From IMG/VR virus record IMGVR_UViG_2698536387_000003: a DNA stretch of 9,195 bases; one strand, 5' to 3'. The translations under genes were made by a program, and so were the position numbers. The notes beneath the pieces were generated by a model. It ran no database searches, had not been told where the DNA came from, and worked only from the letters and a program-made list of their open reading frames with translations. Positions 1 to 9,195 of this stretch are shown piece after piece. The stretch's first letter is position 1; each line of letters starts with the position of its first letter. This stretch comes from a virus. Taxonomy: Duplodnaviria > Heunggongvirae > Uroviricota > Caudoviricetes.

Positions 1-89
1 GGGTTTGCATAGGCGTCACCCTGACCGTTGTAAACCCACAGAGTGGTACCGGCACCTTTTACCGGCTCAAGGGGATTTGGTGTTGCCAT
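1..89 (-). CDS. V: Major tail protein, lambda gpV homolog; N-terminal ~29 codons only, gene continues past the window start
   Basis: Reverse complement from the ATG at 89..87 translates [30 protein letters not shown], closely matching the recalled lambda gpV N-terminus ([30 protein letters not shown]). A GAGGA Shine-Dalgarno lies about 5 nt upstream. Position directly after the U homolog matches lambda gene order. Not in the ORF track because it has no stop in the window. Confidence 0.8.
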
Positions 90-96
90 ATCGTCC

Positions 97-492
97 TCAC
101 ATCTCGTATGTAATGGAATAAGTCAGATCTGCAGAACTCCATAACGCCATATCGTCATCACGACGATACTCATAGCCCTGCGTAACCATCGTGGTAATCA
201 GTCCTGCCAGTGCCGGGATCGCGGTCATCGCCGGGTAAATCCGGCTTTCCATCCACTGATCAAGCTCTGAATCCGGTACCTGTGCCGGTAAAAACACCTC
301 AATATGCAGCGTGGCCCGCCAGGTATCTGCATCCAGCTCTTCACCGGTATACTCTGCATCCGTCAGATAAACCGCGATCGCAGGAAAATCCTCTTCGTCA
401 AAAACAACGGGGCGACCATCAAACAGCGTCGCCCCGTGTTCATGCTGCTCGAGTGCATCCAGCACTGCGGCACGAATGTCAGTGTGTTTCAT
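97..492 (-). CDS. U: Tail terminator (tail tube completion) protein, lambda gpU homolog
   Basis: 131-aa [31 protein letters not shown]...[10 protein letters not shown] aligns along its full length with recalled lambda gpU ([28 protein letters not shown]...DLTYVITYEM). Its ATG overlaps the Z stop in an ATGA arrangement at 489..492. Confidence 0.92.
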
Positions 493-1022
493 CGTTTTAT
501 TGCAATCCTCAGTTGTTGTTTCAGCGCGGATGCCAGTTCTTTAGGCAGGCGTTCACGCCGGATACGGTCAACATTCTCATCAAATGCCTGTTTCAGTGGG
601 GCCGCCATCGGGATTTTCACCACATCAATGGGGTAACGGTTTTTCCCGGCCACACGCTGCATGACATGCCAGCGACCATTTTTTAATCGCTGAATAAATG
701 CCCGCTGATACCGATGCTGACCGGCTTTAAGTATGCTGTCCGGACGACGCCCCGGCATCCTGATCCCCAGCTTAATCACAGGGAGATCACCGCGGTTAAC
801 GATAATTCTGGCATTCGGATTTCTGACCGTGGCCCGTTTCAGTCTGGACCGTTCCTTTACCAGTTTCCGGCTCACCCTGGTCTCCCGGGCAACCTGTGAT
901 GAAGACTGATTAATCGCCGTTGTGGCCACGCGGTTAATGGTCATTGCAGAAGCCGCCGGAATGGCGTTTTTACGAACCCGACTCAGATTATCAATCGCCT
1001 GCTCAAGCCCTTTTATCGCCAT
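489..1022 (-). CDS. Z: Tail completion protein, lambda gpZ homolog
   Basis: 177-aa ORF begins MAIKGLEQAIDNLSR and ends FIQRLKNGRWHVMQRVAGKNRYPIDVVKIPMAAPL...[25 protein letters not shown], matching recalled lambda gpZ at both termini. Follows FII as in lambda. Confidence 0.9.
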   Translation of the reverse strand: MAIKGLEQAIDNLSRVRKNAIPAASAMTINRVATTAINQSSSQVARETRVSRKLVKERSRLKRATVRNPNARIIVNRGDLPVIKLGIRMPGRRPDSILKAGQHRYQRAFIQRLKNGRWHVMQRVAGKNRYPIDVVKIPMAAPLKQAFDENVDRIRRERLPKELASALKQQLRIAIKR

Positions 1023-1037
1023 AATTTCACCCTGCGT

Positions 1038-1391
1038 TTATCGTCGCCGGTTAACGGCGGGTGGTTGCCCACGGTTGAGCCAGAGATAACAGCTGCCCCC
1101 GTCATCCGGAGAAACACGATCCACCCAGAACGTCTCACCATTAATGGTCAGCGTGTCACCACGCCGCACAGCACGAACCGTATCCGTCCGTACAAATAAT
1201 GACGGGCTGCTTCCTTCAATACGGACCCCGCTACCGGCAAATCCCAGCGACTCCGGATCGTCAAAAACCCCCTGAACTTCTCCGCCACACTGTGCCCCCG
1301 AGGTGAACTGTGCACAGAGCCCCATCACTTCAACAATCGTACTGTCCACCCCGGCAAGGGCAGCATCAAAGGCATTCTGAAAATCACGCAT
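1038..1391 (-). CDS. FII: Head-tail connector protein, lambda gpFII homolog
   Basis: The ORF track gives 1038..1427 (129 aa). Homology to lambda gpFII (MADFDNLFDAAIARADETIRGYMG...GDTLTI...FWVDRVSPDDGGSCHLWLGRGVPPAVNRRR) begins at the internal MRDFQNAFDAALAG, so the start is placed at the ATG at 1391..1389, giving a 117-aa product. That ATG overlaps the FI stop (ATGCGTGA), consistent with translational coupling. The alternative starts at 1427 or 1409 cannot be excluded from sequence alone. Confidence 0.85.
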   Translation of the reverse strand: MRDFQNAFDAALAGVDSTIVEVMGLCAQFTSGAQCGGEVQGVFDDPESLGFAGSGVRIEGSSPSLFVRTDTVRAVRRGDTLTINGETFWVDRVSPDDGGSCYLWLNRGQPPAVNRRR

Positions 1392-1758
1392 AAACAGCCA
1401 TTCCGCCATCAACGTGTGTTTTTGCATCTGAGGACATAATCAGAATCACCCGACCAACATCCGCAAGCTCAACGGATTCCCCTGTTTCACCATCAATGCC
1501 ACAGAGATGGAGGCAGGTCAGAACTCTGATGCGCGTTAACGCACCGGATGTATCCTCACGAACATCATGAGCCGCGGTTTCCCGCTCCCGGATCACCGTA
1601 TCCCCAACCTGAACATCCTCGCCGGATGACTGTATTTCCTCTTCCCATTCCGCCACCCGCTGCGCTATCTCTGCGGCACTCCCGGATATATCCGGCTCAC
1701 GCCCCAGAATCAGGGCCAGTTCATCAAGCCGTTTCAGATTTTGCTCTTTCGTTGCCAT
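1384..1758 (-). CDS. FI: DNA-packaging protein, lambda gpFI homolog
   Basis: The ORF track gives 1384..1806 (140 aa), but the first 16 codons would run through the E-FI intergenic hairpin. The internal ATG at 1758..1756 (MATKEQNLKRLDELALILG...) is preceded by an AGGGGG Shine-Dalgarno 6 nt upstream. The product is acidic with a C-terminal domain, similar in size and character to lambda gpFI, and sits between E and FII. Confidence 0.8.
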   Translation of the reverse strand: MATKEQNLKRLDELALILGREPDISGSAAEIAQRVAEWEEEIQSSGEDVQVGDTVIRERETAAHDVREDTSGALTRIRVLTCLHLCGIDGETGESVELADVGRVILIMSSDAKTHVDGGMAVYA

Positions 1759-1770
1759 ATCAGCCCCCTG

Positions 1771-1801
1771 TGAAAAAAGACACGGGGGCATTTCGCCCCC
1801 G
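1771..1801 (-). terminator. Intrinsic-terminator-like hairpin between E and FI (7-bp all-GC stem CGGGGGC/GCCCCCG, 5-nt loop, then UGUC and a U6 run on the transcript)
   Basis: Plus-strand 1783..1789 cgggggc and 1795..1801 gcccccg are perfect reverse complements, separated by atttc. On the minus-strand transcript the stem is followed by UGUCUUUUUU (plus-strand A-run at 1773..1778). It lies in the 51-bp gap between the E stop (1810..1812) and the FI start (1758). Confidence 0.55.
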
Positions 1802-1809
1802 CTCACGGA

Positions 1810-2838
1810 TTATTTCACCTGTACCACCACAAACTCATCCGGGTCCGGCAACACCATCAGCGGCGCGGACTGCGTCATGGTAAATTCACGGGCGGGATCC
1901 CCCACCGTCAGCCAGTGTTTCGGATAACGGGAAGAGGCCACCACACCTTCGGACAACGCCTGAGCATCCTGAATGGCACCGTAACAACGGATCCCATCTG
2001 CAGCAGTATTCCCCAGAACCAGCGTGCCCTCCGGCAGATAACGTTTTTCGATACCGTCTTCTGCTATATAAGACGTTTTCGCCACCACAATGGCCAGATC
2101 GCCGTAATACCCCTTGAAGGACACCACTGCGCCCAGATCTTTCACTGCCGTTTCGAGTTGAGAATTTGAACCGCGACGGGTATCCAGTTTTTCGCGGAAC
2201 AGCTTAAAACCATTCAGAAGACGCCAGACGGTACCGTCCATAATGGCAATATTCACAAGACCGCTGGCCTGGTCGCAGTAGAGGTCAAGATCATGTGTAG
2301 GATCGAACGTGTCACGATCCTGTTTTGACCACTCCTTACCACTACCCTGAGTGATGTTATTCTTCGTCGACCTGCCAAAATCGACCTCAATTTTCTCGAA
2401 CTGGTCTCCTTCCATCGTATATTTGCCATACAACACAGCATTTACCGCCTGCATTTCTTCCACCTGGACAATCGCGTGCTCTTCCTGTTTGAGGTTATCG
2501 GTAATGATACGCAGACGGCGGTAAGCCGGATCGTTCAGTTGAGCCGGATCTTCACCAGGAAGGCGCTCAACCGCCTGCTGGTAATTAAATTCGTGTTTCG
2601 GCTTGACGTAGCCCGGACGTAACACGCGGGTTTCACCACCACGATGACGCAGCACTTTTCCTTCAACAACCGGGGAGATATAGGCCGCCACCGGCGTTTT
2701 TCCGGTAATTTTGTCCAGCATCACCTCTTCGGTATGGAAATTCACCGTACGGCGGAAAAACAGCTCCAGAAACAGCGCACGAAATTTCACTTTTTGTTCG
2801 GTATAACCGAGTAACTGGCGGGTCGTAAACAATCCCAT
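1810..2838 (-). CDS. E: Major capsid protein, lambda gpE homolog
   Basis: 342-aa ORF aligns end to end with recalled lambda gpE (341 aa), including long conserved runs such as PGYVKPKHE, DPAYRR, AIVQVEEMQAV, KLDTRRGSNS, LETAVKDLG, GDPAREFTM and QSAPLM. Confidence 0.95.
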   Translation of the reverse strand: MGLFTTRQLLGYTEQKVKFRALFLELFFRRTVNFHTEEVMLDKITGKTPVAAYISPVVEGKVLRHRGGETRVLRPGYVKPKHEFNYQQAVERLPGEDPAQLNDPAYRRLRIITDNLKQEEHAIVQVEEMQAVNAVLYGKYTMEGDQFEKIEVDFGRSTKNNITQGSGKEWSKQDRDTFDPTHDLDLYCDQASGLVNIAIMDGTVWRLLNGFKLFREKLDTRRGSNSQLETAVKDLGAVVSFKGYYGDLAIVVAKTSYIAEDGIEKRYLPEGTLVLGNTAADGIRCYGAIQDAQALSEGVVASSRYPKHWLTVGDPAREFTMTQSAPLMVLPDPDEFVVVQVK

Positions 2839-2867
2839 AAATCAGTTCCTTTCATTCAGAAATCAGT

Positions 2868-2887
2868 CAGGCCACCGCGGTGGCCTG
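2868..2887. repeat. Perfect 20-bp palindrome CAGGCCACCGCGGTGGCCTG in the D-E intergenic spacer
   Basis: Read directly from the sequence at 2868..2887. It lies between the D stop (2896..2898) and the E start (2838). It could form a hairpin of up to 10 bp around the CGCG centre (no unpaired loop in the ideal palindrome, so the real stem would be about 8 bp). No U-tract follows it on the transcript. Confidence 0.6.
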
Positions 2888-2895
2888 ATAACGTG

Positions 2896-3243
2896 TTACG
2901 GCAGCGCCGCGTGACTCAGGGCACTGCCGGCAAAGGCATTTGCCTTTTTGTGTTCATCCACACTTTCAGGCCAGCGGATTGCCTCCGTCGCAAAGGTCCC
3001 CGACTTGTAATAGGTCAGTACCGTCTCTGTGCCTTCAAGCGGCAGTACCAGTATGCCAACTGCACTACCGGCTTTCTGTCCGTCCCAGACCACCAGTTTC
3101 CCGGTAGCTTCATCCAGCATCAGGGGCGTCAGTGCCGGTGTTGCCGAGGAAATCCCGCTGCTGCCTGTGGCGGTATGAGCCGGATCATTACCGGCAAAAA
3201 TACGTACTTCCGCACGCTGTTCAGTGATGTTTTTCGTTACCAT
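2896..3243 (-). CDS. D: Head decoration protein, lambda gpD homolog
   Basis: 115-aa ORF contains DPAHTAT, TPLMLD, KLVVWDG, AVGIL, YKSGTF and AFAG in the same order as recalled lambda gpD (110 aa). An AGGAGG Shine-Dalgarno lies about 10 nt upstream of the ATG at 3243. Confidence 0.92.
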   Translation of the reverse strand: MVTKNITEQRAEVRIFAGNDPAHTATGSSGISSATPALTPLMLDEATGKLVVWDGQKAGSAVGILVLPLEGTETVLTYYKSGTFATEAIRWPESVDEHKKANAFAGSALSHAALP

Positions 3244-3279
3244 ATTGTAAAAACCTCCTGTTGATGGTCAGCACTGACT

Positions 3280-3882
3280 TCATGGCATGGCCATGAGCAT
3301 TTTCACGTCCGCATCACCGTCTGCTGACGTCTGTGGCACGCCACCCTGTACCGCAGCCGGTGAATGGTTCGCCATGATGCGTTCAAACAGGGCGGTTGTG
3401 GATGCAGAGACCGGTTCTGCCTTACCTGATCCCGCAGCCAGCACAGCCCGGGCGCTCTCCACAGTCATTCCCGGGCAGGCAGCCAGCTGTTCAGCCTGCG
3501 CCTCAGCCCCTTTTGCCTCATCCAGTGCCATGATCTGATCACGGAGTGAGGGTCCGGCATCCGCCTGCGGTGAAGCAGCCAGGATCGGGCGGGCTTTTTC
3601 CACCGTCATCTCCGGCATCGCCGCCAGCGTTGCCGCCAGTTGTTCACGACCGTTCGCTTCTTCACACGCCATAATGCGATCGGCTTCACTCTGCGTGGAT
3701 GCCACCGGCTGCTGCGGTGCCGCCGCAGCCAGAATCGCCCGGGCCTGTTCAACGCTCATGCCCTGTTGTCCTGCCAGCATCGTGGCAAGCTGTTCACGTC
3801 CTTTCGCTTCCTGGCATGTCAGGATCCCCATCACTCGCTGGTTCTCCTGCGCGGCGGCTTCCGTTGCAGTTAATTGCGGCAT
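3280..3882 (-). CDS. Nu3: Capsid scaffolding protein, lambda gpNu3 homolog; nested in frame within the 3' part of C
   Basis: The in-frame internal ATG at 3882..3880 is preceded by a strong GAGGAGG Shine-Dalgarno inside the C coding sequence. The resulting 200-aa product (MPQLTATEAAAQENQRVMGILTCQEAKGREQ...) parallels the lambda arrangement, where Nu3 is the in-frame C-terminal part of C and contains a RIMGILNCEEAHGRE-type motif. Confidence 0.7.
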   Translation of the reverse strand: MPQLTATEAAAQENQRVMGILTCQEAKGREQLATMLAGQQGMSVEQARAILAAAAPQQPVASTQSEADRIMACEEANGREQLAATLAAMPEMTVEKARPILAASPQADAGPSLRDQIMALDEAKGAEAQAEQLAACPGMTVESARAVLAAGSGKAEPVSASTTALFERIMANHSPAAVQGGVPQTSADGDADVKMLMAMP

Positions 3883-4785
3883 AGTGCCTCCTCTGACATT
3901 ACTGTTCAGCGCCGTGGCCATCACACTGATGGCATCCGACGCATTGACTAATTCATCCGCCAGCCCGGCATCAATGCCGGACTGACCTTCAAAAACGGCG
4001 GCCTCTGTTCCCGTGACGGCATCAACAGACAGACCGGTAAACATCGCCACTTTTTCGGCAAACATCCGGCGCGCCGCATCAATGCGCTGCTGCATGTCCT
4101 GGCGAACCTCTGCCGGTAAGGCTTCAAACTGATTGCCATCCACCTTGTGCGCCCCTGAGTAAATCAGCGTGATATCCACACCGGCCTGCGCCAGATGACC
4201 GGCATAGCTGACATGGCTCATCATCACGCCAATGGAGCCGATACGGGATGTCTGGGTAACCAGCCGTCGGGAGCAGGCCGACGCCAGCAGCATGGCTGCA
4301 GAACAGGCCGTGTCATTGCACAGTGCCCAGACCGGCTTCTGCTGACGGAGGCGGTAAATCATGTCAGCGCAGTCAAACGCGCCGGCGGCCTGCCCGCCCG
4401 GACTGTCAATGTCCAGCAGTACGCCCCGCACCTGGCTATCCGCCATTGCCTGCTGAAGACAGGCGACAATGCCGTCATAGCCTGTCATTCCGGAAAATGG
4501 CCGCATACCCCCCAGCCGGTGCACCAGCGTGCCGGTCACCGGCAGTACAGCAATACCGTTCACCACCCGGTAAACACGGGCCGGTCGTTTACCTCCGGCC
4601 ATGTACTCGTCCGTTTCAGCCAGCATTCCGGGAGCATCAAGCTGTACCTGCTGCTGTGGTACCGAAAGACTTGCTGCCCCCATCTCGCGCCCGAGCGCGC
4701 AAAAGAAAACCCGCGCATAGGCGGGCTCCAGAAGCAGCGGTTCATTGAATGCTGCGGCAATAATGTGTGAAAGATTACGTCTCAC
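3280..4785 (-). CDS. C: Prohead protease / minor capsid protein, lambda gpC homolog (S49 SppA-like serine peptidase) with a C-terminal scaffold region
   Basis: 501-aa ORF. The N-terminus (RNLSHIIAAAFNEPLLLEPAYARVFFCAL) matches recalled lambda gpC (RNLPHIASMAFNEPLMLEPAYARVFFCAL). It carries the S49-type DSPGG motif and a conserved serine context (CNDTACSAAMLLASA versus lambda ANDMNCSAGQLLASAA). The product is longer than the 439 aa I recall for lambda gpC because of repeat expansion in the C-terminal part. Confidence 0.9.
   Translation of the reverse strand: MRRNLSHIIAAAFNEPLLLEPAYARVFFCALGREMGAASLSVPQQQVQLDAPGMLAETDEYMAGGKRPARVYRVVNGIAVLPVTGTLVHRLGGMRPFSGMTGYDGIVACLQQAMADSQVRGVLLDIDSPGGQAAGAFDCADMIYRLRQQKPVWALCNDTACSAAMLLASACSRRLVTQTSRIGSIGVMMSHVSYAGHLAQAGVDITLIYSGAHKVDGNQFEALPAEVRQDMQQRIDAARRMFAEKVAMFTGLSVDAVTGTEAAVFEGQSGIDAGLADELVNASDAISVMATALNSNVRGGTMPQLTATEAAAQENQRVMGILTCQEAKGREQLATMLAGQQGMSVEQARAILAAAAPQQPVASTQSEADRIMACEEANGREQLAATLAAMPEMTVEKARPILAASPQADAGPSLRDQIMALDEAKGAEAQAEQLAACPGMTVESARAVLAAGSGKAEPVSASTTALFERIMANHSPAAVQGGVPQTSADGDADVKMLMAMP
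3349..3837 (-). repeat. Diverged in-frame tandem repeats (period about 140-160 nt, 3 full copies plus one partial) encoding the scaffold motif R-[VI]-M-x-[IL]-x-x-[EQ]-E-A-x-G-R-E-Q-L-A...G-M-[ST]-V-E-x-A-R-x-[IV]-L-A-A
   Basis: Protein copies: RVMGILTCQEAKGREQLATMLAGQQGMSVEQARAILAAAAPQQ, RIMACEEANGREQLAATLAAMPEMTVEKARPILAASPQ, QIMALDEAKGAEAQAEQLAACPGMTVESARAVLAAGSG, and a partial ERIMANHSPAA. The repetition is also visible at nucleotide level (recurring gccataat/gccatgat, tgttcacg and ccagaatcgcccgggc segments). Confidence 0.75.
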
Positions 4786-6367
4786 GGGGTGTTGTCTCCT
4801 CTTCCGGCCTGCGACTCTCCGCTATCTGCTGCTGATACGCCTGCGCTATCCACACCGGACGTGAGAGTCCGGCTTTTTGCCGCTCTGCAGATTCCCTGAC
4901 CTGCTGGCGGAAAATGTCCTGATAATCCTCGCCCATCAGCGCCAGCTCTTTCTCATACGTGCTCAGTCCGGCCTCAATGCGCATCACCGATTCCTGAACC
5001 TCCTTGAGCCCGTCAATGGCCATTCTTCCGGCTCCAATCCACTCTGCCCGTGACCAGGCTGATCGCGCCTGATAAAAATCAAAACGTGCCCGTGGCGGAC
5101 GAATAATCCCCCGAAGAAGTGCCTCTTCCAGCCAGCAGGAAAACATCTGCGTGGCCAGCCGGGCCGCAATAAATTTTCGCCGCCCCATAAAATAGCGCCA
5201 CGACTCATTGGCGGAGGCGCGGGCACTTGAGTAACTGACCTTCGAGTAATCACGGGACAACTGTTCGTAGGAAACGCCAAGACCGGCGGCGATATACCGC
5301 AGCAACGCCTGTTCAAGCGCAGAAAATCCATTGTCTGAATCCTGCGCAGTCTGTAGTTTCAGATCATCACCAGGGAAAAGGTGCGGAATTTTGACACCGC
5401 CCAGTGTCACGTTATTCGTGTCATACCAGCTGGAGAACTTCTCCAGAATATTAATAAGCGGATTATCTTTCTGCTCCTGTGGCGCGCCGGCGATATATTC
5501 AAAGGCCTTTTCGGTATCAAGTTCACTTTCAATCGTCGCTGCATACATCGCCTTCACTATGGCCGACTGAAGCTGTGTTGCCTGCAGGGAATCGAGCATC
5601 TTCAGCCGTTCCATGACGCTGTAAAACTGGTTGGCCCCACGGGTCTGCCCGTCCTCCACCGGCTCGAAAATATGCAGCATGGCCGGACGCCCGGTGGGAA
5701 GTTCACGCGGGATCCGTTCCCATCGTCCACTCCCGGAGAACGGAAAATCATCCTCACAGATATGGTACGCAACGGCACGGCCATATCGATCGACCTCCAC
5801 CCCGGCCCGCAGAAAACGGTTCCCCATACCGTGTCCTGGCGTGTCCACCCGTTTCGGACTCACGGCTTTAAAACGCGTACGGAATAACTGCGTGGTTTCC
5901 GTATCCCAGACCGGCTGCACAAAGATTTCGCCGTTAAACGCATGAACGCCCACACCTTCACGGATAAATTCCGTGAACGTGCGTTTTCCTTCCACGTCGA
6001 TCTCGCCAGACATCCCTTCGGCGTATTCCGACCAGGCCGCCTCCACCTCATCGACAAAGCTTTTTGCTGCGGTCTCCCGCATCCCCAGCCAGCGCCAGTT
6101 CGGACGGTAGCTGATCAGAAACATATGCCCGACAATGTGATCCTTATGCAGAGCCACCGCATTAGCCGCTATTCCGTTATTGCGCACCAGATCATCTGCC
6201 CGGGCATTCCCCAGACGCAACGCGGGCAGCAGGGCCGCATCGGCACTCTGCGCCGGTGGCAACCACTCAGCCATTTGCCCGCCAAATCCTGCACCGCCCC
6301 CGTTGTAGCTGAGACTCTCACGAAGCGGAACGCCGTTCACATCAATCAGGACAGGCGTTCGTTTCAT
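4775..6367 (-). CDS. B: Portal protein, lambda gpB homolog
   Basis: 530-aa ORF aligns throughout with recalled lambda gpB, for example GNARADDLVRNNG, FEPVEDGQTRGAN, QLQSAIVKAMYAATIESELDT, LRYIAAGLGVSYEQLSR, ARASANESW, GRMAIDGLKEVQE and EAGLSTYEKE. Its ATG overlaps the W stop (ATGA at 6364..6367). Confidence 0.95.
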   Translation of the reverse strand: MKRTPVLIDVNGVPLRESLSYNGGGAGFGGQMAEWLPPAQSADAALLPALRLGNARADDLVRNNGIAANAVALHKDHIVGHMFLISYRPNWRWLGMRETAAKSFVDEVEAAWSEYAEGMSGEIDVEGKRTFTEFIREGVGVHAFNGEIFVQPVWDTETTQLFRTRFKAVSPKRVDTPGHGMGNRFLRAGVEVDRYGRAVAYHICEDDFPFSGSGRWERIPRELPTGRPAMLHIFEPVEDGQTRGANQFYSVMERLKMLDSLQATQLQSAIVKAMYAATIESELDTEKAFEYIAGAPQEQKDNPLINILEKFSSWYDTNNVTLGGVKIPHLFPGDDLKLQTAQDSDNGFSALEQALLRYIAAGLGVSYEQLSRDYSKVSYSSARASANESWRYFMGRRKFIAARLATQMFSCWLEEALLRGIIRPPRARFDFYQARSAWSRAEWIGAGRMAIDGLKEVQESVMRIEAGLSTYEKELALMGEDYQDIFRQQVRESAERQKAGLSRPVWIAQAYQQQIAESRRPEEETTPRET

Positions 6368-6570
6368 AACCTCACTCCCAGCGGACGACGGCGACGCCGG
6401 GTTGTCCCCAGTACCGACTCCGCATCATTGATCGCCCGGTTAAGCTCATCCAGAGAAGCCGCCGTATATTCAATTCTGCGACCATCTTTCTGGACAGACA
6501 CCACCCGTTTACCGGTTAATAAATCAAGGCGCGCCTGACGCAGCGCCTGCAGTTCAGCGACTGTAACCAT
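6364..6570 (-). CDS. W: Head-tail joining (head completion) protein, lambda gpW homolog
   Basis: 68-aa ORF MVTVAELQALRQARLDLLTGKRVVSVQKDGRRIEYTAAS... matches recalled lambda gpW (68 aa; ...[26 protein letters not shown]...). Its start overlaps the 3' end of A by 17 nt. Confidence 0.9.
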   Translation of the reverse strand: MVTVAELQALRQARLDLLTGKRVVSVQKDGRRIEYTAASLDELNRAINDAESVLGTTRRRRRPLGVRL

Positions 6571-8303
6571 TCACTCCTCCGGACAGCTTCGCTGCCAGTT
6601 CTTTCAGGGTTGGCCGGGTCGTCTCTTCTTCCCGGGATTTTGCCAGTACAGCCAGATCAAGCTGCCAGCGTTGCACGGACACACGTAATGCCGCGTAGGC
6701 ATACACCAGGCAGTCCAGCGCTTCGTTACGCCGCTTTTTGTTATCCCACAGCAGACGCATCTTTCCTTTTTCCCACTTCTCCACCAGCTCTTCCGCCACC
6801 AGTTGCTGCGCCTCTGTCTGCGAAAAAATCTCCGGATCATCAGGAAAACGGATGGCATACGACGTGGCTTCATCCGCAGGCGTGGGATCGGCTTTCATAC
6901 GGGCATAGAGAATTTCTTTTGCGGTGTCCGTTCCCACTTCACACAGATACACGCCCCGCTGATTGCGGGTTTTCGGCATGGTGATCACCGGCTTGCCATA
7001 GACAGACGCGCCTTTTACCGGCAGCACCCGGAAAACACCGTGTTTTTTTGATCTCTGATAAACAATTTCACCATCGATCCCCCCGGTGTCCCAGCAGACA
7101 CGGGAAATAGTCATTTCGGTGCCATCCGCATGGCGGTATTTTTTGTTGATCGCCGCATCCACACGTAACAGCGTCTCTTCCTCATCGGGACGCCCCATAA
7201 TGATGATTTTATCCACCAGAAAGGCTTCCTCTCCCGGTGCCCATCCCCAGACATACATCTCAAAACGGTTTCGCTGCGAGTCAATGCCCGCCGTCAGATA
7301 AACCACCCGGGCAGGCACCGCCGCCGTGTAACGCACCACCTTATCCATCAGTACCTGGTGATCGAGTTTTTCGCCCACGGCCTCTTCCCAGGTCTCGCCC
7401 AGCGTGGTGTTCACAAAGGTTTTCAGGCCGTTGGGATCTTTCAGTGCATCCAGCCAGTCATAGACAATCTGTACCCAGGTGGTGAACGGACTGTACGCCG
7501 TCCAGATATGGAACATGATGGAGCGCGGCGGCGGAATTTCATCACCCCGGGCGCTGAAAAACGTCAGACCGTCACGGGTCCACATGCCCGTGTTTTCACA
7601 GATCCACCGCCCGTTGCTCTGGTCCAGTTCAGACTGATGGATCACGCAGCCATGATGTTCACAGAGGTAGAAAACACTTTCAGGGCTGTCCTTCTCCCAT
7701 TTAAGCCCAAAAGGCGTGGACTCATCGCCAAATTTCAGATACTGCGCCTCCCCACAGTGCGGGCAGGGCACATAAAAACGCATAAAATGCGCCGACTCGT
7801 TAGCGGCTTTTTCGATCTGGCAGGTGCCTTTGATTTTAGGCGTCGAGCCGCGAATGGATTTTGGCCACACCGACCCCTCAATACGCTTATCCCCCAGCAG
7901 GGTTGGCGAGCCCTCTTTTTCGACATCCGGCTCGAACGAGGAAAGTTCGTCATAGCAGACCACGTCAACGGATTTTTCACGGTAGTTTTTGGCGGCAGCG
8001 CCGCCCAGGCACCAGAAACCGACGCCCGATGAAAAGCGTTTCAGCGTGAGAGTATTGTCACGATGTTTACGACCCAGCCATGGGGAAAGGTCTTTCAGGC
8101 ATGGCACGTTCCGAATCGTCGCCTCCACGTGAGACTTCATAAAATCTTCAGCGGCAGAATCCGTGGGCTGAAAAAGCAGACTGTTTCGGGATTTATGCTC
8201 AATAAAATACCCGACCACCCCCAGCAACATCTTTGTATAGCCAACACGGGCAGATTTAATCAGNNNNCATCATATTATTCAGTTGTTGCTCTGATATATT
8301 CAT
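6554..8303 (-). CDS. A: Terminase large subunit, lambda gpA homolog; interrupted by a 4-N run at 8264..8267 with about 60 codons apparently missing
   Basis: The 558-aa ORF (6554..8230) aligns with lambda gpA from its internal KMLLGVYAYFIEHK to the C-terminus (CPHCGE, FVNTTLGETWE, LTAGIDSQ, WDTGGID, GTDTAKE, KKRRNEALDC). Upstream of the N-run the same strand encodes LIKSARVGYTK, matching lambda VVKSARVGYSK. Beyond the N-run an ATG at 8303..8301 encodes MNISEQQLNNMM, matching the lambda gpA N-terminus MNISNSQVNRL. The two flanks are in different frames if the gap is exactly 4 nt. Confidence 0.9.
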
Positions 8304-8673
8304 CAAGTAAATCCGGTAATTTATCCCCTGCCCGCGCACACTGATTTGCCCCCTTAGCAATAAGGGTTTTCAGATGGTCAAGATGGCGCGGTGTTAAATC
8401 AGGAAACTGTCGCTGCATGGATAAAGGGATGGAATCAAGCGTACTGGATAACGCCATTGCCAGCTTACTGAGGGCAAAAATACAGAACCCGGTGTCAATN
8501 NNNNNCACATCGTTTTTACTTCTCCTCAGATACGATATGTAAAAATCGCGCCAGGCATCCAGATCCAGTTGCCCTCGCTTATTCGATATCGGGGCACCCG
8601 GCAATTTCTGCAATCTGCGAAGCTGGCGATCGGTCAGACTTAAATGCCTGGCAACTTCAGTCTGCGTAGCCAC
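8275..8673 (-). CDS. Nu1: Terminase small subunit, lambda gpNu1-like; GTG start; interrupted by a 6-N run at 8500..8505; N-terminal DNA-binding domain differs from lambda
   Basis: The C-terminal 74 aa (IDTGFCIFALSKLAMALSSTLDSIPLSMQRQFPDLTPRHLDHLK...LPDLLDEYI) match the lambda Nu1 C-terminus (VETAFCTFVLSRIAGEIASILDGLPLSVQRRFPELENRHVDFLK...IPGLLSEYI). The N-terminal 56 aa (MATQTEVARHLSLTDRQLRRLQKLPGAPISNKRGQ...) have an HTH-like pattern in the same position as lambda's but a different sequence. The start codon is GTG at 8673..8671 with a GAGGTGAGGA Shine-Dalgarno region immediately upstream. The product is about 50 aa shorter than the 181 aa I recall for lambda Nu1, consistent with missing sequence at the N-run. 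Confidence 0.82.
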   Translation of the reverse strand: MATQTEVARHLSLTDRQLRRLQKLPGAPISNKRGQLDLDAWRDFYISYLRRSKNDVXXIDTGFCIFALSKLAMALSSTLDSIPLSMQRQFPDLTPRHLDHLKTLIAKGANQCARAGDKLPDLLDEYIRATTE

Positions 8674-8720
8674 TCCTCACCTCGCAAAAACTCTCACCTC
8701 ACAATCACAACAAAACCGGT

Positions 8721-8819
8721 CATGTCCGGTTTACATGTCTGTTTTTTGTTCATGTCCGGTTCACAGAAGACCTGTTTTTATATTTTTCATATAGTTAACT
8801 TGAAGAGAAACCGGACATG
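8721..8819. repeat. Candidate cosB terminase-binding R elements: three exact copies of the 11-mer CATGTCCGGTT (two on plus, one on minus) flanking an AT-rich segment
   Basis: Exact 11-mers at 8721..8731 and 8751..8761 (plus strand) and 8809..8819 (minus strand), with an AT-rich stretch at about 8771..8805 between the second and third. The arrangement of repeats around an AT-rich bend site parallels lambda cosB (R3, I1, R2, R1), but the motif differs from the lambda R sequence (CGTTTCC-type). Confidence 0.6.
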
Positions 8820-8856
8820 GATCCCGGAAAATTTTCATAAATAGCGAAAACCCGCG

Positions 8857-8868
8857 AGGTCGCCGCCC
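8857..8868 (-). other. cosN cohesive-end sequence, identical to the lambda 12-nt sticky end GGGCGGCGACCT; the wider cos region spans roughly 8700..8900
   Basis: The minus strand at 8868..8857 reads GGGCGGCGACCT and is followed by CGCGGGTTTTCGCTATTTATGAAAATTTTCCGG, which is identical to the first 45 nt of the lambda genome left end as I recall it. The sequence on the other side of the nick (minus-strand ...TTCGTGGGTCCTTTCCGGCGATCCGACCGGTTACG) closely matches the lambda right end, where cosQ is expected. Confidence 0.9.
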
Positions 8869-8903
8869 CGTAACCGGTCGGATCGCCGGAAAGGACCCAC
8901 GAA

Positions 8904-8920
8904 ATGATAATAATTATCAT
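8904..8920. repeat. Perfect 17-bp palindrome ATGATAATAATTATCAT on the right-end side of cos
   Basis: Read directly from the sequence. The left arm atgataat is the reverse complement of the right arm attatcat, around a central a. It lies about 35-50 bp from the cosN nick, in the region whose lambda counterpart has a similar TGATAATGATTATCA element. Confidence 0.6.
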
Positions 8921-8981
8921 CTATATAAGGTTTATCACAACATGTGTGTACGCCATCAAACCACGAGAAATAATCAATTAT

Positions 8982-9012
8982 GACGCAGGTATCGTATTAA
9001 TTGATCTGCGTC
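8982..9012. promoter_or_regulatory. Inverted repeat GACGCAG-N17-CTGCGTC upstream of the ylcI-like ORF; candidate operator or protein-binding site
   Basis: 7-bp arms at 8982..8988 and 9006..9012 are perfect reverse complements, with AT-rich partially symmetric flanks (caattat / aaattaa). A possible -10 (gataat, 9036..9041) and weak -35 lie just downstream, ahead of the ATG at 9075. Confidence 0.4.
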
Positions 9013-9074
9013 AAATTAACGTAAAAGCAACTTCAGATAATACAAATCAGCAACACTGAATATGGGGAAACATT

Positions 9075-9195
9075 ATGTCATCAAAGAACAGAACCCGCAG
9101 AACAACAACCCGCAACATCCGATTTCCAAACCAGATGATTGAACAAATTAACATCGCTCTTGATCTGAAAGGTTCAGGTAATTTTTCAGCGTGGG
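9075..9195 (+). CDS. ylcI: Small YlcI-like (DUF3950) protein, putative DNA-binding; 3' end lies beyond the window
   Basis: The ATG at 9075 is preceded by GGGGA 6 nt upstream. Translation is MSSKNRTRRTTTRNIRFPNQMIEQINIALDLKGSGNFSAW..., which matches the 64-aa ORF I recall at the lambda right end and in DLP12-type prophages adjacent to the Nu1 homolog. Not in the ORF track because there is no stop within the window. Confidence 0.6.
   Translation, partial: MSSKNRTRRTTTRNIRFPNQMIEQINIALDLKGSGNFSAW

What the first reader, a model, noticed from the sequence alone, without database searches (positions are those of the whole stretch)
8264..8505. Both terminase genes are interrupted by N-runs that look like gaps of unknown length
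gpA-like sequence lies on both sides of the 4-N run at 8264..8267 (MNISEQQLNNMM upstream, LIKSARVGYTK-MLLGV downstream), but the two flanks are out of frame by one if the gap is exactly 4 nt, and about 60 residues of the lambda gpA N-terminal region are absent. The 6-N run at 8500..8505 sits where about 50 residues of Nu1 are missing relative to lambda. So the Ns are most likely placeholders for about 150-190 bp each. If they instead reflect true deletions, the prophage would be packaging-defective.
Basis: partly seen in the sequence, partly recalled or inferred. Interest (0 to 1): 0.45.

Follow-up and report, generated by a model that had tools for sequence, protein, structure and literature searches.

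The report
Assembly gaps in prophage terminase genes
The two short N-runs are placeholders left by a short-read assembler where two nearly identical prophages in the same E. coli O157 genome differ; they hide 183 and 117 real bases, and the DNA-packaging genes are almost certainly intact, so this is an ordinary artefact.

Summary
NNNN at 8264-8267 and NNNNNN at 8500-8505 are the only non-ACGT characters, and they interrupt a lambda-type terminase large subunit (gpA-like) and small subunit (Nu1-like) on the minus strand.

The window is the whole public contig LGBN01000156.1 (9195 bp). It comes from a MiSeq draft of an E. coli O157 isolate assembled with CLC Genomics Workbench.

The closest complete genome, O157 strain 493/89, matches the retained bases at all but 6 of 9185 positions. 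It has 183 nt where the window has 4 N (TerL codons 13-73) and 117 nt where it has 6 N (TerS codons 57-95). Both genes are intact there. Every related locus checked has a 183-nt spacer (126/126), and 91 of 92 have a 117-nt spacer.

493/89 carries a second, 98.3% identical prophage copy. All four gap edges fall exactly on positions where the two copies differ. 34 of the 35 local differences lie inside the hidden 300 nt. All six window mismatches carry the second copy's allele.

So the Ns mark places where the assembler could not choose between the two copies. They are not deletions. Interest is low.

The parts
8264..8267 (.). N-run 1 (NNNN). It stands in for 183 nt, TerL codons 13-73.
   Evidence: flanks anchor to L001 8764 and 8948; the hidden stretch runs exactly from the first (8765) to the last (8947) of a cluster of 32 differences between the two 493/89 prophage copies.
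8500..8505 (.). N-run 2 (NNNNNN). It stands in for 117 nt, TerS codons 57-95.
   Evidence: flanks anchor to L001 9179 and 9297; the hidden stretch is bounded by 9180 and 9296, the only two copy-to-copy differences between 8986 and 9666.
6554..8303 (-). Terminase large subunit gene (gpA-like), split by N-run 1. Codons 1-12 lie at 8303-8268; codons 74-642 plus the stop lie at 8263-6554.
   Evidence: translations; the full-length homologue is 66% identical to lambda gpA over 639 aa. Pfam GpA_ATPase and GpA_nuclease; annotated as an intact 1929-nt CDS in 493/89.
8275..8673 (-). Terminase small subunit gene (Nu1-like, GTG start). It is in frame across N-run 2 and overlaps the start of TerL by 29 nt.
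   Evidence: 40% identity to lambda Nu1 over residues 49-164. Pfam Phage_Nu1; intact 510-nt CDS in 493/89.
8721..8868 (-). cos region upstream of TerS. cosN (GGGCGGCGACCT) is at 8857-8868. Three R-like sites (CATGTCCGGTT) are at 8721-8732, at 8751-8761, and inverted at 8808-8819.
   Evidence: one exact cosN match, none in 200 shuffles; direct and inverted repeats. Assigning these sites to TerS binding is an inference from the layout of lambda cosB.
7187..7238 (.). Two single-base positions (7187 and 7238) where the contig carries the allele of the second prophage copy instead of the main copy.
   Evidence: the window has G and T here, matching L135, while the neighbouring variable sites carry the L001 allele.
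12..24 (.). Four positions at the contig end (12, 15, 23, 24) that carry the second copy's allele.

Best explanation
The two N-runs are assembly placeholders in a draft short-read contig. They are not biological sequence.

The source genome is an E. coli O157 isolate sequenced as MiSeq 2x250 and assembled with CLC Genomics Workbench 7.0.3. It carries two lambdoid prophages whose head and packaging regions are about 98-99% identical. The assembler merged the two copies into one contig wherever they agree. At small differences it picked one allele. At two stretches where the copies differ over a longer span it could not choose a path and wrote a few Ns.

The hidden stretches are 183 nt (TerL codons 13-73) and 117 nt (TerS codons 57-95). 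Both prophage alleles have these same lengths, so both terminase genes are in frame and full length. The number of Ns (4 and 6) says nothing about the true length.

Shown here: the identity of the record and the assembler; the hidden lengths in relatives; the exact coincidence of the gap edges with copy-to-copy differences; and the mosaic alleles in the contig.

Inferred: that the source strain has the same two copies as 493/89, and which internal step of CLC wrote and shortened the Ns.
For: 1. The window equals the reverse complement of NCBI contig LGBN01000156.1 of GCA_001282025.1, Ns included.
2. The accession belongs to Ferdous et al. 2015 (PMC4609726): Nextera XT, MiSeq PE250, de novo assembly with CLC Genomics Workbench v7.0.3. 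CLC de novo assembly has bubble size, perform scaffolding and update contigs steps.
3. The complete genome of O157 strain 493/89 (L001) matches all retained bases except six. It has 183 and 117 extra nt at the two sites, inside intact TerL (642 aa) and TerS (169 aa) genes.
4. Of the related loci, 126/126 have a 183-nt spacer and 91/92 a 117-nt spacer. No viral contig has the flanks 4 nt apart.
5. 493/89 has a second prophage (L135, at 3.49 Mb) that is 98.3% identical over 8.3 kb. Between L001 8017 and 9666 the copies differ at 35 positions: 32 at 8765...8947, then 8985, 9180 and 9296. The hidden stretches are exactly 8765-8947 and 9180-9296.
6. 34 of the 35 differences lie in the hidden 300 nt (Fisher p = 4e-25). 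The chance that all four edges fall on differing positions is about 2e-7.
7. All six window mismatches to L001 carry the L135 allele.
8. An independent draft genome (IMG 2534681773) also holds two co-resident copies that diverge at 8765, 8947 and 9180.
Against: - The reads of the source isolate were not available, so neither the true sequence in the gaps nor the presence of the second copy in that strain is observed directly.
- Simple word-size clustering of the 493/89 differences does not reproduce the two replaced units for any word size from 25 to 64. Positions 9180 and 9296 are 116 nt apart yet were replaced together. Position 8985 is only 38 nt from 8947 yet was written out.
- Why only 4 and 6 Ns remain is explained only from my memory of how CLC removes uncovered columns when it updates contigs. 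This was not tested.
- Which of the two alleles belongs to this copy in the gaps cannot be told. In strain LSU61 a window-like prophage carries the other allele.
Confidence: 0.93

Rival explanations
1. The Ns reflect real short sequences. The prophage has true deletions of about 180 and 110 nt in TerL and TerS and cannot package DNA.
For: With exactly 4 nt, TerL would be frameshifted. Defective prophages do occur in this lineage: the second 493/89 copy lacks 2.5 kb of head and tail genes.
Against: - N is not a base call, and the record is a scaffolded short-read draft.
- The nearest complete genome, with 6 mismatches in 9185 nt, has both stretches and intact genes.
- No relative has a shortened spacer, and no viral contig has the flanks 4 nt apart.
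- Two independent deletions whose four ends all fall on sites that differ between paralogous copies would need a coincidence of about 2e-7.
Confidence: 0.01
2. These are ordinary coverage gaps. The two stretches were poorly sequenced, for example through Nextera bias at lower G+C, and this has nothing to do with a second prophage copy.
For: The hidden stretches have lower G+C (47% and 44%) than the window (54%).
Against: The gap edges coincide base for base with copy-to-copy differences, and 34 of the 35 differences fall inside the gaps. The stated target depth was at least 60-fold. The six paralogue-type alleles in the contig show that reads of two copies were merged.
Confidence: 0.03
3. This is a collapsed-repeat interior. 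The hidden stretches are the parts that are identical among prophage copies, and the retained flanks are the unique parts.
For: This is the commonest cause of breaks in short-read assemblies of O157 genomes. The 2.2-kb terminase query has 7 places in 493/89.
Against: The opposite pattern is seen. The hidden stretches hold nearly all the differences, and the retained flanks are identical between the copies over 748, 194 and 370 nt.
Confidence: 0.02
4. The Ns are deliberate masking applied by a database or by whoever prepared the window.
For: Some collections used here are said to contain masked stretches.
Against: The same Ns are in the NCBI record itself. Masking would keep the length, whereas 300 nt are represented by 10 N.
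Confidence: 0.01

Closest known systems
Unresolved alternative paths (bubbles) and scaffold gaps in de Bruijn graph short-read assemblies of genomes with several near-identical prophages
   Same: N placeholders in a draft contig. The edges fall where two repeat copies diverge. The contig is a mosaic of alleles from both copies. The N count is unrelated to the true length.
   Different: The replaced units do not match a simple word-size model. The 4 and 6 Ns are far fewer than a distance estimate should give, which suggests a later trimming step.
Bacteriophage lambda terminase operon and cos site (nu1, A, cosN, cosB)
   Same: Gene order is cos, then small subunit, then large subunit, with overlapping genes. 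TerL is 66% identical to gpA along its full length. The C-terminal two thirds of TerS are 40% identical to Nu1. cosN is identical (GGGCGGCGACCT). Three repeats lie between cosN and the small-subunit start, one of them inverted.
   Different: The first 48 residues of TerS do not align with Nu1 by BLAST, and the protein is 12 aa shorter. The repeat motif CATGTCCGGTT is not found in lambda cosB. The DNA-recognition specificity therefore probably differs from lambda's.
Defective lambdoid prophages of E. coli O157 with real deletions in morphogenesis genes
   Same: The same lineage carries such a prophage. The second copy in 493/89 lacks U, Z, FII, FI and most of the capsid gene.
   Different: In the window the apparent truncations are Ns, not sequence junctions, and the corresponding genes are intact in both copies of the closest complete genome.

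Membership tests
Assembly gap / placeholder Ns in a draft genome | Ambiguity characters rather than called bases, present in the deposited draft record | tested here: met
   the Ns are in LGBN01000156.1; a short-read CLC assembly.
Assembly gap / placeholder Ns in a draft genome | The flanks are collinear with continuous sequence in closely related finished genomes, which carry extra bases at the site | tested here: met
   183 and 117 nt in 493/89; 126/126 and 91/92 related loci have these spacer lengths.
Assembly gap / placeholder Ns in a draft genome | Breakpoints coincide with repeat or paralogue structure of the genome | tested here: met
   all four edges lie on copy-to-copy differences (p about 2e-7), tested in the closest complete genome, not in the source strain itself.
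Assembly gap / placeholder Ns in a draft genome | Reads of the source sample span the site with the longer sequence | not testable with these tools
   No read data are available here.
Lambda-type terminase (Nu1/gpA) with cos site | Large subunit with gpA ATPase and nuclease domains | tested here: met
   PF05876 at 1e-55 and PF20454 at 2e-71; 66% identity to lambda gpA.
Lambda-type terminase (Nu1/gpA) with cos site | Small subunit of the Nu1 family | tested here: met
   PF07471 at 7e-19 over residues 49-150; 40% identity to Nu1. The N-terminal DNA-binding part does not align.
Lambda-type terminase (Nu1/gpA) with cos site | cosN nicking site and small-subunit binding repeats upstream of the operon | tested here: met
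   exact lambda cosN; three repeats in a lambda-like layout. Binding by TerS is inferred, not tested.
Truncated or pseudogenised terminase in a defective prophage | A sequence junction that joins the flanks with called bases and breaks the frame or removes a domain | tested here: not met
   only Ns join the flanks, and no relative shows such a junction.

The most novel reading that the evidence does not exclude
The hidden stretches and the six 'foreign' alleles could be more than assembler noise. They might mark real exchange of short tracts (gene conversion) between the two co-resident prophages, centred on the N-terminal, small-subunit-binding part of TerL. That is where the two copies differ by 10 of 61 residues while the rest of the packaging genes are nearly identical. 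LSU61, which has a window-like prophage carrying the other TerS/TerL allele, shows that such reassortment does occur in the population.
Probability: 0.1. Interest if true: 0.2.

Novelty: not a real feature. Interest (0 to 1): 0.05.

Why it matters
It matters mainly as a caution. The public record yields two artefactual proteins: a TerS with XX and a TerL lacking its first 73 residues. These could be misread as a packaging-defective prophage. The contig is also a blend of two prophage copies, so its SNPs should not be used for typing or for phage evolution. There is no new biology here.

Tried and rejected
- A pattern search for the two flanks joined by any 4 bases in viral contigs found nothing.
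- A look-up of the 558-aa internal-start TerL ORF found no record. The XX-containing TerS did identify the source contig.
- I first suspected a collapsed identical repeat inside the gaps. I rejected this because the gaps hold the differences, not the identities.
- I noted that both hidden stretches are exactly codon-aligned, which has a chance of about 1/81, and considered protein-aware masking. I rejected this because the Ns are in the NCBI record. The edges are explained by variable sites, two at third and two at first codon positions.
- I tried to reproduce the replaced units by clustering the copy-to-copy differences at word sizes 25-64. No single value fits.
- A literature search confirmed only that CLC has bubble-size, scaffolding and update-contigs steps. 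It did not show how CLC writes Ns.

Full report
**Observation.** The window contains exactly two runs of ambiguous bases, NNNN at 8264-8267 and NNNNNN at 8500-8505, and no others. Both lie in minus-strand genes. A gpA-like start, MNISEQQLNNMM (8303-8268), ends at the first run. The reading LIKSARVGYTKMLLGV... resumes at 8263 and runs to a stop at 6554. The distance from 8303 to 8263 is 40 nt, so a literal 4-nt filler would shift the frame by one. The Nu1-like gene (GTG at 8673, stop at 8275) stays in frame across the 6 N and reads as a 132-aa product with XX.

**What the genes are.** The full-length homologues in the closest complete genome are a 642-aa large subunit and a 169-aa small subunit. 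The large subunit is 66% identical to lambda gpA over its whole length and matches Pfam GpA_ATPase and GpA_nuclease. Residues 49-164 of the small subunit are 40% identical to lambda Nu1 and match Pfam Phage_Nu1. Upstream lies a cos site. cosN is identical to lambda's (GGGCGGCGACCT, 8857-8868 on the minus strand). Three copies of CATGTCCGGTT lie between cosN and the small-subunit start, one of them inverted, as in lambda cosB. That motif is not in lambda cosB, and the first 48 residues of TerS do not align with Nu1. The DNA-recognition specificity is therefore probably not lambda's; this is an inference.

**Where the window comes from.** A look-up of the XX-containing TerS found a single record: NCBI GCA_001282025.1, contig LGBN01000156.1, 9195 bp. 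The reverse complement of that record is identical to the window, Ns included. So the Ns are in the public deposit, and the window is an entire contig. LGBN00000000 is one of the O157:H7/NM isolates of Ferdous et al. 2015 (PMC4609726). That study used Nextera XT libraries, MiSeq 2x250 reads and de novo assembly with CLC Genomics Workbench 7.0.3. CLC's assembler has bubble-size, scaffolding and update-contigs steps.

**How much is hidden.** The best match among complete E. coli genomes is O157 strain 493/89 (NZ_CP038412.1, locus L001). The 2196-nt query corresponds to 2486 nt in that record. Exact anchoring gives three blocks:
- window 1-8263 = L001 502-8764
- window 8268-8499 = L001 8948-9179
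- window 8506-9195 = L001 9297-9986

There are only 6 mismatches in 9185 retained bases. The first run therefore stands for 183 nt (TerL codons 13-73, 61 residues) and the second for 117 nt (TerS codons 57-95, 39 residues). With these lengths both genes are in frame, and both are annotated as intact in 493/89.

Among IMG/VR and genome loci that carry both flanking anchors, 126 of 126 have a 183-nt spacer, 91 of 92 have a 117-nt spacer, and one has 116. No viral contig has the flanks 4 nt apart.

From my own knowledge of lambda gpA, the hidden TerL stretch covers the Nu1-binding N-terminus and the adenine-binding Tyr46, which is conserved here. The retained part resumes two residues before the P-loop KSARVGY(S/T)K.

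**Why the gaps are there.** Related alleles in public contigs diverge at precisely the gap edges. 29 of 124 loci that share the 30-nt left flank differ first at L001 8765, and many alleles have their last difference at 8947, or differ at 9180 or 9296. One draft genome holds two co-resident copies that differ at 8765...8947 and at 9180.

A query with that second allele showed that 493/89 itself has a second place for this region, at 3.49 Mb (H59). This second prophage (L135) is 98.3% identical to L001 over 8.3 kb. It shares identical portal and gpW proteins and has intact TerS and TerL, but it lacks 2.5 kb of head-tail genes.

Between L001 8017 and 9666 the two copies differ at 35 positions: a cluster of 32 from 8765 to 8947, then 8985, 9180 and 9296. 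The hidden stretches are exactly 8765-8947 and 9180-9296. Thirty-four of the 35 differences fall in the hidden 300 nt (Fisher p = 4e-25). The chance that all four edges land on differing positions is about 2e-7.

In addition, all six mismatches between the window and L001 (window 12, 15, 23, 24, 7187, 7238) carry the L135 allele. The contig is thus a blend of two prophage copies. Short differences were settled in favour of one or the other allele, and two longer variable stretches were left as Ns.

The exact codon alignment of both hidden stretches puzzled me at first. It follows from the edges being variable sites, two at third and two at first codon positions.

**Mechanism, shown and inferred.**
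- Shown: the Ns are in a CLC short-read draft.
- Shown: they replace 183 and 117 nt in every relative.
- Shown: their edges are copy-to-copy differences in the closest finished genome.
- Shown: the contig mixes alleles of the two copies.
- Inferred: the source isolate has the same two copies.
- Inferred: the assembler wrote Ns because it could not choose between two equal-length paths.
- Inferred, from my memory of the CLC manual and untested: the runs shrank to 4 and 6 N because uncovered columns are removed when contigs are updated from the read mapping.

Not explained: no single word size from 25 to 64 reproduces the replaced units from the 493/89 differences. Positions 9180 and 9296 are 116 nt apart but were replaced together. 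Position 8985 is 38 nt from the cluster but was written out. Either the source strain's second copy differs slightly from that of 493/89, or the Ns arise in the paired-read or scaffolding step.

Both alleles have the same lengths, and they differ by 10 residues in the TerL stretch and one (S57P) in the TerS stretch. The conclusion that the genes are intact does not depend on which allele truly sits in the gaps. That choice cannot be made from the contig, since strain LSU61 has a window-like, undeleted prophage with the other allele.

**Rivals.**
- Real deletions are contradicted by the nature of the characters, by every relative, and by the improbable placement of four ends on paralogue differences.
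- A plain coverage gap is suggested only by the somewhat lower G+C of the hidden stretches (47% and 44% against 54%), and it does not explain the edges.
- A collapsed identical repeat is the reverse of what is seen.
- Database masking is excluded because the Ns are in the NCBI record and do not preserve length.

**Verdict.** This is an ordinary assembly artefact in an otherwise typical lambda-type packaging module of an O157 prophage. The practical lesson is that the record's truncated TerL (569 aa) and XX-containing TerS are artefacts, and that the contig's SNPs mix two prophages.

Noticed in passing
window 8721-8868: A complete cos region. cosN is identical to lambda's (8857-8868, minus strand). 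Three CATGTCCGGTT repeats (8721-8732, 8751-8761, inverted 8808-8819) are laid out like lambda R1, R2 and R3. The motif is absent from lambda cosB, and the first 48 residues of TerS do not align with Nu1, which suggests a non-lambda cosB specificity.
   Followed up: partly
window 12, 15, 23, 24, 7187, 7238: All six mismatches to the closest complete genome carry the allele of that genome's second prophage copy. The contig is therefore a mosaic of two copies, caused either by assembler allele picking or, less likely, by real gene conversion.
   Followed up: yes
L135 (NZ_CP038412.1 3479058-3499788) versus L001 586-3088: The second prophage of strain 493/89 lacks about 2.5 kb (U, Z, FII, FI and most of the major capsid gene) and so is defective for head and tail assembly, although its terminase genes are intact. 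Strain LSU61 has the undeleted version at the same chromosomal place (L136).
   Followed up: partly
L001 8765-8947 (hidden by window 8264-8267): Differences between the two prophage copies are concentrated in TerL codons 13-73: 32 nt and 10 residues, mostly in residues 13-29 of the presumed small-subunit-binding N-terminus. TerS differs by one residue and the next 750 nt of TerL by none. This is a sharp mosaic boundary inside the gene.
   Followed up: partly
L006, L008, L010 and similar IMG/VR loci, L001 coordinates 9260-9618: A common group of related prophages matches up to L001 9259 and again from 9619 but not between. These prophages therefore carry a different N-terminal half of TerS and a different cosB next to the same TerL and the same C-terminal half of TerS, which looks like modular exchange of packaging specificity.
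   Followed up: no
window 8275-8303: The TerL start codon (8303) lies 29 nt upstream of the TerS stop (8275), so the two genes overlap. Lambda nu1 and A overlap in the same way, by 26 nt.
   Followed up: yes
L032 gene calls (window 6554-8263 and 8275-8673): The public gene calls on this contig are a 569-aa TerL that starts right after the N-run and a 132-aa TerS containing XX. Both are artefactual proteins that are now in sequence collections.
   Followed up: yes
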